A stretch of 64,000 bases of DNA, taken from assembly GCF_053078305.1 (NCBI RefSeq), contig NZ_CP166879.1; one strand, written 5' to 3'. Below the pieces are notes generated by a model. The model made no database searches and was not told where the DNA came from. It saw only the letters and a list, made by a program, of their open reading frames with translations. A program made the position numbers and the translations under genes. This document shows, in pieces, positions 21,490 to 23,481 of this stretch. The number at the start of each line of letters is the position of its first letter. Position 1 is the stretch's first letter.

Positions 21490-22487
21490 TGGAGCGTAAA
21501 GGGATTATCGCCGCAGGCAATATGTTGGTTGACCACGTCCATCAGATTATCCAGTGGCCAGAGCGCGGCTGGCTGGCGGAGATCACCCACAGCGAACGCT
21601 CCACCGGCGGTGCGCCGCTTAACGTCCTGCTGACGCTGGCGAAAATGCGCACCGGGCTGCCGTTACAGGCGGTTGGGCTAATCGGTCAGGACAGCGACGG
21701 CGATTACATCATGGCGATGCTTGAGCAATATCACGTCAATCGTCAGCATGTGCAGCGCACTACCTTTGCCCCGACGTCGATGTCGCAGGTGATGACAGAC
21801 CCAAGCGGGCAGCGGACGTTTTTCCATTCGCCGGGTGCAAACAGACTTTTGGATCTTCCGGCGTTCGATCAGCTCGATAACACCATGAAGATTTTCCATC
21901 TCGGCTATTTACTGTTGCTCGACAGCCTGGATATGCCGGACGATGTTTACGGCACCCGTAGCGCACGCCTGCTGGCGCAAATGCGTGATACTGGCTTTGA
22001 AACCTCACTCGACCTGGTCTCCCGTAAGGGCGATCCGCGTTATCAGCCGCTGGTGCTGCCCGCGTTGCGCCATCTGGATTATCTGGTAATTAACGAACTG
22101 GAGGCCGGGGAGTTTAGCGGGCTGGAAATTCGGTTACCCAACGGCGAACCGCATATCGCGCATATTGCTGCCGCCGCGCGTGAACTGTTAGATGCGGGCG
22201 TGCGCCAGCGGGTGGTGATCCACTGCCCGGAAGGGGCGTGGGGAGAGACCCCAGAACAGGGCGGCGTGTGGATCCCTTCGCAAAAGTTAGAACAACGGGA
22301 AATTATCGGCAGCGTCGGCGCGGGCGATGCATTTTGTGCCGGATTTTTATATGGCTGCCATGAACGCTGGACGCTTACCGAGAGCATCAAACTGGCACAC
22401 GCCTGCGCGCGGGCAAGCCTGTTATGCGCCAATGCCATCGACGGGGCGAAAACGCTGGAAGAGCTGCAAACAGAAATGTCGGATTAA
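21486..22487 (+). CDS. PfkB-family carbohydrate kinase
   Basis: 333 aa; GG dipeptide (STGGAP) and C-terminal PfkB signature GSVGAGDAFCAGF; start overlaps aldolase stop (ATGA). Confidence 0.8.
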   Translation: MMERKGIIAAGNMLVDHVHQIIQWPERGWLAEITHSERSTGGAPLNVLLTLAKMRTGLPLQAVGLIGQDSDGDYIMAMLEQYHVNRQHVQRTTFAPTSMSQVMTDPSGQRTFFHSPGANRLLDLPAFDQLDNTMKIFHLGYLLLLDSLDMPDDVYGTRSARLLAQMRDTGFETSLDLVSRKGDPRYQPLVLPALRHLDYLVINELEAGEFSGLEIRLPNGEPHIAHIAAAARELLDAGVRQRVVIHCPEGAWGETPEQGGVWIPSQKLEQREIIGSVGAGDAFCAGFLYGCHERWTLTESIKLAHACARASLLCANAIDGAKTLEELQTEMSD

Positions 22488-23191
22488 TGCACGTCGGCAG
22501 CGAAGACATACCCCAGACCGCGCAGAGTTTTAATCAACATCGGCTGATGCGGGTTGAGTTCGATTTTGCGTCGTAAGCGCATGATTAATACGTCGATGGT
22601 GCGATCAAACACCTCCACGCTGTCGCTGTGGGTGAACGCCAGCAACTGCTCGCGGCTCAATACCCGACGCGCGTTTTGCGCCAGAGCCAGTAACAAGCCA
22701 TATTCGCCCTGAGTTAACTCGACATGTTGCTGAAGCGGATTGTGCAACTGGCAGCGCATGGTATCGAGATACCAGCCATTGAATGACAGCCCGGCGCTTT
22801 TCTCGTCATTAACCGCCAGCGCACCAACCCGTCGCAACACCGCTTTCAGTCGTGCGACCACCACCCGCGGGGTGAACGGTTTGCAGATGTAATCATCCGC
22901 GCCCATTTCCAGCCCGACCACCACATCAGACTCACTGCCCATGCCGGTCAACATCACCACCGGCAATGTCGGACGCAGTTTCTGGATTTGCTGCAATACC
23001 CTCAGGCCGTTGGTATCGGGTAGCATCATATCCAGCACCACCAGCGCAATGTCAGGATCGCCCTCAATACGCAATATGGCCTCCTGTCCGGTATGGCAGA
23101 CTGAAACCGTAAAGACATGTTCACTTAACACGTCCTGCAACAGTGCGCAGATAGCCGTGTCATCATCCACCACCAGCACGACGGGTTTCAT
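22484..23191 (-). CDS. OmpR/PhoB-family response regulator (REC plus winged-helix DNA-binding domain)
   Basis: ATG at 23189-23191 with GGAG 9 nt upstream (alternative ATGs at 23204-23209); VLVVDDD, LDMMLPD, C-terminal LRGLGYVF winged helix. Confidence 0.85.
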   Translation of the reverse strand: MKPVVLVVDDDTAICALLQDVLSEHVFTVSVCHTGQEAILRIEGDPDIALVVLDMMLPDTNGLRVLQQIQKLRPTLPVVMLTGMGSESDVVVGLEMGADDYICKPFTPRVVVARLKAVLRRVGALAVNDEKSAGLSFNGWYLDTMRCQLHNPLQQHVELTQGEYGLLLALAQNARRVLSREQLLAFTHSDSVEVFDRTIDVLIMRLRRKIELNPHQPMLIKTLRGLGYVFAADVH

Positions 23192-23481
23192 GGTTACACT
23201 CCGCATCATTCATCTGATTAATCATTGTGCGTACTTCTTGTCGAAGTGAAAGCTGAAAGTAATATAAATAATAAAAATATAAGTCAGGTCACATTATTGA
23301 TGATAGTAATAAATATGCCGTACTTTTCCCTCTTCAGCACAAATGCCTAATAAAATGGATCGTTCCGCTCACACTTCCACTTATTAAAGTCGCAATTTCC
23401 CAATTATGATAACGCCAGCTTTAAATGACGTATTTTGCATGGATTACATATTTACGACATAAATGATAAATGGAGATTTAT

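What the first reader, a model, noticed from the sequence alone, without database searches (positions are those of the whole stretch)
22482..22490. Convergent kinase and response-regulator genes with overlapping stop codons
The PfkB kinase stop (TAA, 22485-22487) and the response-regulator stop (complement of TTA, 22484-22486) overlap on opposite strands. Transcripts from the catabolic operon and from the regulator gene must therefore overlap at their 3' ends with no space for a terminator, which could couple regulator expression inversely to operon transcription.
Basis: seen in the sequence. Interest (0 to 1): 0.3.

Follow-up and report, generated by a model that had tools for sequence, protein, structure and literature searches.

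The report
Ordinary four-base tail-to-tail gene overlap
The last gene of a known E. coli mannose/lyxose-utilisation operon and the gene for that operon's own regulator really do end on a shared TTAA, but this is the commonest and smallest possible kind of tail-to-tail overlap, it is not conserved in related bacteria, and published data show the two genes being switched on together rather than inversely.

Summary
The PfkB kinase gene (21486-22487, +) and the response-regulator gene (22484-23191, -) share the tetramer TTAA at 22484-22487, and RefSeq annotates the same 4-nt overlap.

The locus is already characterised. It is island OI-167 of E. coli O157:H7. The kinase is LmuK, the last gene of the lmuXYZIAK mannose/lyxose operon. 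The regulator is LmvR (also named RbfR, Z5684), which activates that operon.

Four bases is the smallest tail-to-tail overlap the stop codons allow, and it is the known modal class. In 73 related loci from other Enterobacteriaceae the convergent arrangement is kept but the spacing varies:
- -22 to +184 nt in most loci
- REP elements filling some of the longer spacers
- extra genes inserted in others
- exactly -4 in 13 loci, in about six different sequence contexts

I found no intrinsic terminator, unusual RNA fold or Rfam family at the junction. Both transcripts therefore probably run into the opposite gene and end there, most likely by Rho (inferred).

The proposed inverse coupling is not supported. 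Mannose and lyxose induce lmvR and the operon together, and LmvR autoregulates. Those assays were not strand-specific, so a damping effect is not excluded. Low interest.

The parts
22484..22487 (.). Shared tetramer TTAA. It holds the stop of lmuK (TAA 22485-22487, + strand) and the stop of lmvR/rbfR (complement of TTA 22484-22486).
   Evidence: PGAP annotation
21486..22487 (+). lmuK (EDL933_5429): PfkB-family sugar kinase with published fructokinase activity, last gene of the operon. Its start overlaps the lmuA stop by 4 nt (ATGA).
   Evidence: Pfam PfkB E=1e-35; 99.7% aa identity to EDL933; PMC10128022
22484..23191 (-). lmvR = rbfR (Z5684 / EDL933_5428): OmpR/TorR-type response regulator, 235 aa from the PGAP start. 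It activates the lmu operon and LEE.
   Evidence: Pfam; 100% aa identity to the EDL933 protein WP_000805929.1; PMC10128022, PMC9860305
16425..17945 (+). lmuX: ABC transporter ATP-binding protein, first gene of the operon.
   Evidence: induced 695-fold by LmvR overexpression
17942..18916 (+). lmuY: ABC transporter permease.
18935..19876 (+). lmuZ: periplasmic sugar-binding protein.
19931..20614 (+). lmuI (Z5688): D-lyxose/D-mannose isomerase.
   Evidence: Pfam Lyx_isomer E=3e-92; PDB 3KMH/3MPB E=4e-160 over the full length
20629..21489 (+). lmuA: class II ketose-bisphosphate aldolase.
   Evidence: Pfam F_bP_aldolase E=1e-91
14050..16311 (-). lmvK = rbfS (Z5692 / EDL933_5436): hybrid sensor histidine kinase, transcribed divergently from the operon.
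   Evidence: Pfam HAMP, HisKA, HATPase_c, Response_reg
16338..16352 (+). LmvR binding site ATATGA-N3-ATATGA in the lmuX promoter.
   Evidence: Only exact match in the window; published DNase I footprint at -41 to -62 (PMC10128022); TATGACAAATATGAAC is conserved (>=80% consensus) across 59 distinct promoter sequences from other genera
23192..23481 (.). AT-rich intergenic region between lmvR and yjcS, holding the lmvR promoter. Expression from it is RpoS-dependent and autoregulated according to the literature.
   Evidence: PMC2907692; PMC10128022
22768..22967 (+). C-rich, G-poor stretch (C/G 1.5-2.8) in the operon-strand RNA, 280-480 nt past the lmuK stop. It is a candidate Rho-loading region (inferred only).
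   Evidence: consistent with yjcS not being among the genes induced when the operon is induced
22163..22363 (-). C>G stretch (C/G 1.35-1.67) in the lmvR-strand RNA, 120-320 nt past the lmvR stop. It is a candidate Rho-loading region (inferred only).

Best explanation
This is an ordinary, minimal (4-nt, TTAA) tail-to-tail overlap. It joins lmuK, the last gene of the LmvR-activated lmuXYZIAK mannose/lyxose operon of island OI-167, to lmvR (= rbfR), the gene for that operon's activator.

The overlap is best explained as a by-product of compaction. The complement of a TAA/TAG stop followed by A or G is itself a stop in one frame of the other strand. A converging ORF in that frame therefore ends exactly 4 nt into its neighbour.

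The E. coli junction is a lineage-specific short form. LmvR ends FAADVH*, whereas relatives end FAADVxHxxKAA*.

No terminator lies at the junction. RNA polymerases from each side therefore most likely continue a few hundred nucleotides into the opposite gene and are stopped there, probably by Rho acting on untranslated C-rich RNA (inferred, not shown).

Net expression of both units is set by their LmvR-dependent promoters, so they rise together. Any convergent interference is at most a secondary damping.
For: - Geometry and gene identity.
- Known class: CTAA/TTAA/CTAG/TTAG are the tetramers behind the 4-bp mode of convergent overlaps, and 58 convergent overlaps were counted in E. coli (PMC2174442).
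- Comparative data from 73 species-level loci with both genes convergent. Spacing was -22 (3 loci), -19 (2), -13 (2), -4 (13), 0 to 5 (14), 6-30 (9), 31-200 (14) and >200 (16).
- The -4 state occurs with about six unrelated kinase C-terminal tails and with TTAA, TTAG or CTAG.
- The alignment shows the E. coli junction to be about 24 nt shorter than the zero-gap Citrobacter junction.
- Longer spacers are REP/BIME elements or inserted genes.
- No terminator-like site near the junction, and counts equal to shuffles. My own hairpin/U-tract scan found none within about 450 nt on either strand.
- Folding z-scores were +0.5, +0.8, -0.7 and +0.6. No Rfam match at E<=1.
- Published regulation: LmvR footprints on ATATGA-N3-ATATGA upstream of lmuX; the operon is cotranscribed; lmvR and the operon are co-induced by mannose and lyxose; LmvR autoregulates (PMC10128022).
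- yjcS, which is co-directional and downstream of the operon beyond lmvR, is not among the 88 differentially expressed genes when the operon is induced 20- to 695-fold. Read-through therefore ends before yjcS.
Against: - 43 of 73 related loci leave 30 nt or less between the two genes. In two loci with three extra operon genes, the new last gene again ends 2 nt from the regulator's stop. Persistent terminator-less abutment could mean that convergent read-through is tolerated for a reason.
- No transcript 3' ends have been mapped, so Rho-dependent termination inside the neighbouring gene is inference from composition only.
- The co-induction data come from assays that are not demonstrably strand-specific.
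Confidence: 0.75

Rival explanations
1. Convergent excludon or negative feedback. When LmvR~P switches the operon on, polymerases reading through the terminator-less lmuK end run antisense across lmvR. They lower LmvR synthesis by polymerase collision and/or RNase III cleavage of the RNA duplex. This limits the response, and with it LEE activation.
For: - No terminator at the junction or nearby.
- The operon is induced up to 695-fold at lmuX and 20-fold at lmuK, so antisense traffic into lmvR could be heavy.
- Convergent excludons are common in E. coli K-12: 165 were reported, and they favour short intergenic distances (PMC12288877).
- Tight abutment of the regulator gene with the operon's last gene recurs across genera.
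Against: - lmvR signal rises, not falls, with operon induction on mannose and lyxose, and LmvR autoregulates through its own promoter.
- Spacing is not conserved. REP/BIME elements or whole genes separate the pair in many species.
- No strand-specific data exist for this locus.
Confidence: 0.2
2. Efficient cryptic termination right at the junction. Candidates are ribosome release-coupled Rho action, polymerase collision, or a non-canonical hairpin embedded in the first approximately 100 nt of the neighbouring coding sequence. Transcripts would then overlap by only a few tens of nucleotides and the arrangement would have no consequence at all.
For: - An imperfect ~20-bp hairpin can be drawn at about 22517-22573 on the + strand RNA.
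- About 20% of E. coli genes in convergent overlaps have predicted terminators inside the neighbour.
- yjcS is not induced with the operon.
Against: - That hairpin has no U-tract, and the region folds no better than shuffles (z = -0.68).
- Neither the consensus scan nor my own scan found a terminator-like site within about 450 nt downstream of either stop.
Confidence: 0.1
3. Annotation or sequence artefact: one of the two stops is miscalled, or results from a sequencing error, and the genes do not truly overlap.
For: None found.
Against: - All 410 matching genomes (of 5426 complete E. coli genomes) cover the query, 399 at >=99% identity.
- All six Escherichia loci inspected keep the TTAA junction, including the 96.2% and 92.9% lineages.
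- Both proteins end just after the end of their Pfam domains.
- PGAP calls the same ends.
Confidence: 0.01

Closest known systems
4-bp convergent (tail-to-tail) gene overlaps using CTAA/TTAA/CTAG/TTAG (Lillo & Krakauer 2007, PMC2174442)
   Same: Same geometry: two opposite-strand stop codons packed into one tetramer, here TTAA. This is the modal length of convergent overlaps in prokaryotes, and 58 convergent overlaps of all lengths were counted in E. coli K-12.
   Different: Nothing structural. This instance lies in an accessory island (OI-167) absent from K-12, so it is not in the K-12 counts.
Convergent excludons / 3'-overlapping transcript pairs in E. coli (ExcludonFinder, PMC12288877: 165 convergent excludons in MG1655)
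   Same: Convergent genes with a very short (here negative) intergenic distance, whose transcripts must overlap.
   Different: The defining behaviour, mutually exclusive expression, is not seen here, because published data show co-induction. 146 of the 165 K-12 cases have predicted terminators embedded in the neighbour's transcription unit, and none is predicted here.
LmvK/LmvR with lmuXYZIAK (Yang et al. 2023, PMC10128022), the same system as RbfS/RbfR (Liu et al. 2022, PMC9860305), island OI-167 of E. coli O157:H7
   Same: It is this locus. The regulator protein is 100% identical, gene order and insertion site (yjdP to yjcS) are the same, and the LmvR operator ATATGA-N3-ATATGA is present.
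   Different: Neither paper's held text mentions the overlap, antisense transcription or termination (checked by term search only in Yang 2023). The window comes from a non-O157 E. coli lineage: 100% identity to strains 88-3493, LD93-1, XJ6-3 and CUWW06, against 99.8% to O157:H7.
soxS / pdeC (yjcC) junction in the same window
   Same: Convergent pair with almost no spacer (stops 2 nt apart, 53132-53139), showing how ordinary such packing is in E. coli.
   Different: No shared nucleotides, and the two genes are unrelated in function.

Membership tests
4-nt convergent gene overlap (shared-stop tetramer class) | Two genuine protein-coding genes on opposite strands, converging | tested here: met
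   Pfam domains on both. Orthologues of both found convergent in 73 of the 78 other-species loci analysed. Published functions in PMC10128022.
4-nt convergent gene overlap (shared-stop tetramer class) | Both stop codons contained in one tetramer of the set TTAA/TTAG/CTAA/CTAG | tested here: met
   TTAA at 22484-22487.
Convergent excludon | Transcripts of the two genes overlap at their 3' ends | not testable with these tools
   Complete mRNAs must share at least 4 nt by geometry. The real extent needs 3' end mapping. No intrinsic terminator is predicted nearby.
Convergent excludon | Reciprocal (mutually exclusive) expression of the two genes | tested here: inconclusive
   Literature points the other way. 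lmvR and lmuKAIZYX are both induced by mannose and lyxose, and LmvR is autoregulated. However, the qPCR and RNA-seq were not shown to be strand-specific.
Convergent excludon | Terminator of one gene embedded in the transcription unit of the other | tested here: not met
   No terminator-like hairpin with a U-tract within about 450 nt downstream of either stop. Folding z-scores near zero.
Bidirectional intrinsic terminator between convergent genes | GC-rich hairpin flanked by an A-tract and a U-tract between or across the two stops | tested here: not met
   There is no intergenic DNA. The junction +/-60 nt folds no better than shuffles (z = +0.52 and +0.76). No Rfam hit.
LmvK/LmvR (RbfS/RbfR) - lmu island OI-167 | Response regulator identical or near-identical to EDL933_5428 / Z5684 | tested here: met
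   100% aa identity over 241 residues to the EDL933 locus. Same RefSeq protein WP_000805929.1 in XH990 and EDL933.
LmvK/LmvR (RbfS/RbfR) - lmu island OI-167 | Gene order HK | X Y Z I A K | RR, inserted between yjdP and yjcS | tested here: met
   described in PMC10128022.
LmvK/LmvR (RbfS/RbfR) - lmu island OI-167 | LmvR operator ATATGA-N3-ATATGA upstream of lmuX | tested here: met
   Exact match at 16338-16352, the only one in 64 kb. Conserved across genera.
LmvK/LmvR (RbfS/RbfR) - lmu island OI-167 | LmuI is the crystallised D-lyxose isomerase Z5688 | tested here: met
   PDB 3KMH/3MPB, E=4e-160, residues 1-227. That 3KMH is Z5688 rests on my own knowledge of van Staalduinen et al. 2010.

The most novel reading that the evidence does not exclude
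The terminator-less tail-to-tail junction could act as a built-in brake. Strong LmvR-dependent induction of lmuXYZIAK would send polymerases antisense through lmvR, capping LmvR synthesis. In O157:H7 this would also cap LEE/T3SS activation, linking flux through a sugar operon to virulence-regulator dosage. A corollary is that part of the published 'induction' of lmvR/z5684 by mannose, lyxose or riboflavin could be antisense read-through detected by non-strand-specific assays.
Probability: 0.12. Interest if true: 0.4.

Novelty: new member of a known kind. Interest (0 to 1): 0.12.

Why it matters
It matters little. The genes, their regulation and their role in EHEC virulence are already published, and the overlap is of the commonest type.

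The one practical point concerns expression measurements of lmvR/rbfR. This is a virulence regulator studied under two names with two proposed signals, and it abuts a terminator-less operon that can be induced by hundreds of fold. Its expression should therefore be measured strand-specifically. If convergent read-through did damp LmvR, it would be a modest addition to the list of excludon-type circuits, in a medically relevant regulator.

Tried and rejected
- **Terminators at the junction.** The consensus scan, my own hairpin/U-tract scan, folding with shuffles and Rfam at E<=1 found nothing.
- **Published RbfR footprint on ler** (TCTCACATAATTTATATCATT) compared with the conserved lmuX promoter element TCTGACATTTTGCATTTAC. 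The match is 13/21, but 51 sites in the window score >=13. The IUPAC pattern hit was built from both sequences and is circular. Rejected as evidence.
- **ATATGC-GCG-ATATGC direct repeat inside lmuK** (22151-22165, - strand). Six matches with <=2 mismatches against 2.8 expected, and 11 of 100 shuffles did as well. The repeat encodes the peptide HIAHIA. Treated as chance.
- **Per-gene strand-specific counts for Z5684-Z5692.** None are in the held supplements of PMC4048457, and no supplements are held for PMC9860305.
- **Literature search for Z5685-Z5687, ECs5066/5067 and rbfR** added nothing.
- **Annotation-artefact explanation.** Rejected.
- **Tor-box similarity.** The reverse complement of ATATGAACGG matches CTGTTCATAT at 9/10 (PMC9239176). 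It is noted only as a resemblance. The real operator is the published ATATGA-N3-ATATGA.
- **Coordinate transfer.** Mapping XH990 coordinates to the window for soxS/pdeC was off by 454 nt, so the window carries an indel relative to XH990. Corrected by direct ORF listing.

Full report
**1. Observation**

The + strand reads ...tcg gat TAA tgc acg... at 22479-22493. The ORF 21486-22487 (+, 333 aa) ends ...LQTEMSD* with TAA at 22485-22487. The ORF on the - strand ends ...GYVFAADVH* with its stop as the complement of TTA at 22484-22486. The genes share the palindromic tetramer TTAA (22484-22487), and the stop codons share two bases.

Both are real genes.
- The first is a PfkB kinase (Pfam E=1e-35).
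- The second is an OmpR-type response regulator (Response_reg plus Trans_reg_C). Its DNA-binding domain profile is matched to its last position, five residues before the stop.

RefSeq/PGAP annotates the same 4-nt overlap in XH990 and in two EDL933 assemblies. PGAP starts the regulator at window 23191 (MKPVV, GGAG 7 nt upstream), not at 23209.

**2. What the locus is**

The window is E. coli. The region between yjdP and yjcS carries eight genes:
- a divergent hybrid histidine kinase (14050-16311, -)
- an ABC ATPase, permease and binding protein
- a D-lyxose/D-mannose isomerase
- a class II aldolase
- the PfkB kinase
- the convergent regulator

The isomerase matches PDB 3KMH/3MPB at E=4e-160 over its full length.

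The regulator is 100% identical in amino acids to the EDL933 protein WP_000805929.1, locus EDL933_RS26880 / EDL933_5428.

This island is OI-167, and two groups have characterised it.
- Liu et al. 2022 (PMC9860305) call the pair RbfS/RbfR (Z5692/Z5684). They report riboflavin sensing and direct activation of ler.
- Yang et al. 2023 (PMC10128022) call them LmvK/LmvR and name the six genes between them lmuXYZIAK.

Yang et al. report the following:
- The six genes are cotranscribed.
- LmvR footprints on ATATGA-N3-ATATGA at -41 to -62 of the lmuX promoter.
- Mannose and lyxose induce the operon through LmvK/LmvR.
- LmvR autoregulates.

The operator is at 16338-16352 and is the only exact match in the window. 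I found independently that TATGACAAATATGAAC is conserved (>=80% consensus) across 59 distinct promoter sequences from other genera.

**3. Is the overlap special?**

No, for four reasons.

First, overlaps of 1-3 nt are impossible given the stop codon set. No suffix of TAA/TAG/TGA equals a prefix of TTA/CTA/TCA. Four is therefore the minimum, and only TTAA, TTAG, CTAA and CTAG allow it. This follows from the sequences directly.

Second, those tetramers are the published cause of the 4-bp mode in convergent overlaps, and E. coli K-12 has 58 convergent overlaps (PMC2174442).

Third, the eight convergent pairs in this window have spacings of -4, 2, 34, 98, 143, 153, 223 and 302 nt. The 2-nt case is soxS/pdeC at 53132-53139.

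Fourth, a scan of one genome per species returned 79 loci encoding close relatives of the kinase, in Citrobacter, Enterobacter, Kosakonia, Buttiauxella, Phytobacter, Leclercia, Lelliottia, Atlantibacter, Tolumonas and others. In 73 of them the regulator lies convergent downstream. The spacing is labile:

| Spacing (nt) | Loci |
|---|---|
| -22 | 3 |
| -19 | 2 |
| -13 | 2 |
| -4 | 13 |
| 0 to 5 | 14 |
| 6 to 30 | 9 |
| 31 to 200 | 14 |
| >200 | 16 |

The thirteen 4-nt overlaps occur with about six unrelated kinase C-terminal tails and with TTAA, TTAG or CTAG, which indicates repeated origin.

The mechanism is visible in the sequences. The regulators mostly end ...KAA*, so the + strand reads TTA(A/G)GC. 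That gives a TAA or TAG in one frame, which stops the incoming kinase ORF exactly there. The kinase tail is otherwise unconserved after ...GAKTL.EL.

The E. coli regulator ends FAADVH*, five to six residues shorter than the usual FAADVxHxxKAA*. The E. coli junction is about 24 nt shorter than the zero-gap Citrobacter junction. It is therefore a lineage-specific compaction, shared with Escherichia sp. E1V33.

Longer spacers in Citrobacter and Enterobacter are REP/BIME elements. Other loci have inserted genes, and in two loci the new last gene again ends 2 nt from the regulator's stop.

All 410 matching genomes (of 5426 complete E. coli genomes) cover the query, 399 of them at >=99% identity. 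All six Escherichia loci inspected keep the TTAA junction, including the 96.2% and 92.9% lineages.

**4. Termination**

- The consensus scan finds no terminator-like site downstream of either stop, and counts equal the shuffle expectation.
- My own scan for hairpins of dG <= -9 with at least 5 U in the following 9 nt finds none within about 450 nt downstream of either stop. The only hit is a weak one at 22935.
- Four folds around the junction have z-scores of +0.52, +0.76, -0.68 and +0.63.
- Rfam gives nothing at E<=1.

Composition offers C-rich, G-poor stretches. On the operon strand they lie at 22768-22967 (C/G 1.5-2.8). On the lmvR strand they lie at 22163-22363 (C/G 1.35-1.67).

My inference is that both transcripts run a few hundred nucleotides into the opposite gene and are ended by Rho once translation has stopped. 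This is not shown by any experiment.

One indirect check fits. When LmvR is overexpressed, fold changes are lmuX 695, lmuY 408, lmuZ 24, lmuI 26, lmuA 26 and lmuK 20. Yet yjcS, which lies on the operon's strand just beyond lmvR, is not among the 88 differentially expressed genes. Read-through therefore dies before yjcS.

**5.

The idea is the convergent excludon. That class is known: 165 convergent excludons are reported in E. coli K-12, and they favour short intergenic distances (PMC12288877). The necessary condition, overlapping transcripts, is very likely met here.

The defining behaviour, inverse expression, is not seen.
- Mannose and lyxose markedly stimulate both lmvR and the operon.
- LmvR binds and regulates its own promoter, shown by EMSA and a lacZ fusion.
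- Riboflavin raises z5684 9.1-fold.
- Basal z5684 expression depends on RpoS, being 15-fold lower in an rpoS mutant (PMC2907692).
- The operon is nearly silent in LB: Z5688 had 2 reads (PMC4048457).

Both units are thus driven by the same activator and rise together.

Caveats remain. The qPCR used a general cDNA kit and the RNA-seq kit's strandedness is not stated. Antisense read-through from the induced operon could inflate 'lmvR' signal, and a damping interference cannot be excluded. Yang et al. do not mention antisense RNA, terminators or convergence.

The published data do show an inverse relation at the other end of the operon. lmvK, which is divergent from lmuX and has the LmvR operator 27 nt from its start codon, falls to 0.26-fold on LmvR overexpression.

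**6. Verdict**

This is an ordinary 4-nt tail-to-tail overlap in an already characterised island. It is a previously undiscussed instance of a well-known kind. Confidence that it has no dedicated regulatory role is about 0.75. An excludon-like damping remains possible at about 0.1-0.2. Interest is 0.12.

Noticed in passing
window 14050-23191 (whole island); loci L001-L083: Both papers describe the island as essentially restricted to EHEC O157:H7, O145 and O55:H7. Here 410 of 5426 complete E. coli genomes carry it. These include strains not labelled as those serotypes: XH990 (human urine), APEC37 and other chicken isolates, otter and horse isolates, and O169:H41. The window itself is 100% identical to such strains and 99.8% identical to O157:H7. 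Syntenic homologues exist in about 75 other Enterobacteriaceae species.
   Followed up: partly
window 14050-16311 and 22484-23191: The same two-component system has been published under two names with two different signals: RbfS/RbfR sensing riboflavin (PMC9860305) and LmvK/LmvR responding to mannose and lyxose (PMC10128022). The RbfR ler footprint and the LmvR lmuX operator are different sequences.
   Followed up: partly
window 16312-16424 (lmvK-lmuX intergenic region); supplement Table S3 of PMC10128022: lmvK is one of only two genes down-regulated (0.26-fold) when LmvR is overexpressed. The LmvR operator (16338-16352) lies 27 nt from the lmvK start codon. Inverse coupling to operon induction therefore exists for the divergent sensor gene, not for the convergent regulator gene.
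   Followed up: partly
window 18917-18934 (lmuY-lmuZ junction); Table S3 of PMC10128022: There is a sharp step in fold-induction along the operon: lmuX 695x and lmuY 408x, against lmuZ 24x, lmuI 26x, lmuA 26x and lmuK 20x. This suggests either attenuation after lmuY or an internal constitutive promoter raising the baseline of the distal genes. A consensus scan of 18400-19300 found no promoter-like site and only one terminator-like site, inside lmuY at 18592-18616, at chance level.
   Followed up: partly
L003 8441-9588 (strain R32_14_1F) and L004 1588-2588 (strain MB53): In the two most divergent E. coli lineages carrying the island, lmuK is a pseudogene. One has a frameshift and the other an aldolase-kinase internal deletion. 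lmvR stays intact and the TTAA junction is retained. This fits the published finding that lmuK and lmuA are dispensable for growth on lyxose.
   Followed up: no
EDL933 NZ_CP008957.1 5208479-5209126 (= lmvR CDS; window 22484-23191): The ChIP-seq 'peak' assigned to lmvR spans almost exactly the lmvR coding sequence, with a pile-up about 40 times that of the lmuX peak (45586 vs 1031). This looks like reads from the plasmid-borne lmvR-2Flag copy rather than a promoter site. The authors did confirm autoregulation separately by EMSA and lacZ.
   Followed up: no
window 14050-16311 (-): The hybrid kinase has HAMP, HisKA, HATPase_c and a C-terminal receiver domain, but no HPt domain by Pfam. This is unlike TorS, to which it is compared, so a canonical His-Asp-His-Asp relay to LmvR would need an HPt supplied elsewhere. 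Liu et al. report direct phosphotransfer in vitro.
   Followed up: no
window 53132-53139: soxS (stop TAG 53132-53134, +) and pdeC (stop as complement of TTA 53137-53139, -) converge with only 2 nt between their stops. This is a second terminator-less tail-to-tail junction in the same window.
   Followed up: partly
L005, L006, L016, L037 spacers; L008 and L014 junctions (about 7000-7160 in each locus): In Citrobacter and some Enterobacter, the kinase-regulator spacer is built of REP/BIME elements (for example GCCTGATGCGCTACGCTTATCAGGCCTAC and TGTAGGCCGGATAAGGCGTTTACGCCGCATCCGGCA). In L008 and L014, REP-like sequence (GCCGGATAAG...TTTACGCCGCC) fills the short junction and, in L008, also supplies the kinase's last codons and stop.
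   Followed up: partly
window, somewhere between about 27000 and 52000: The window carries about 454 nt more than strain XH990 between the island and soxR. Coordinates transferred from XH990 were off by 454 nt. The indel was not located.
   Followed up: no
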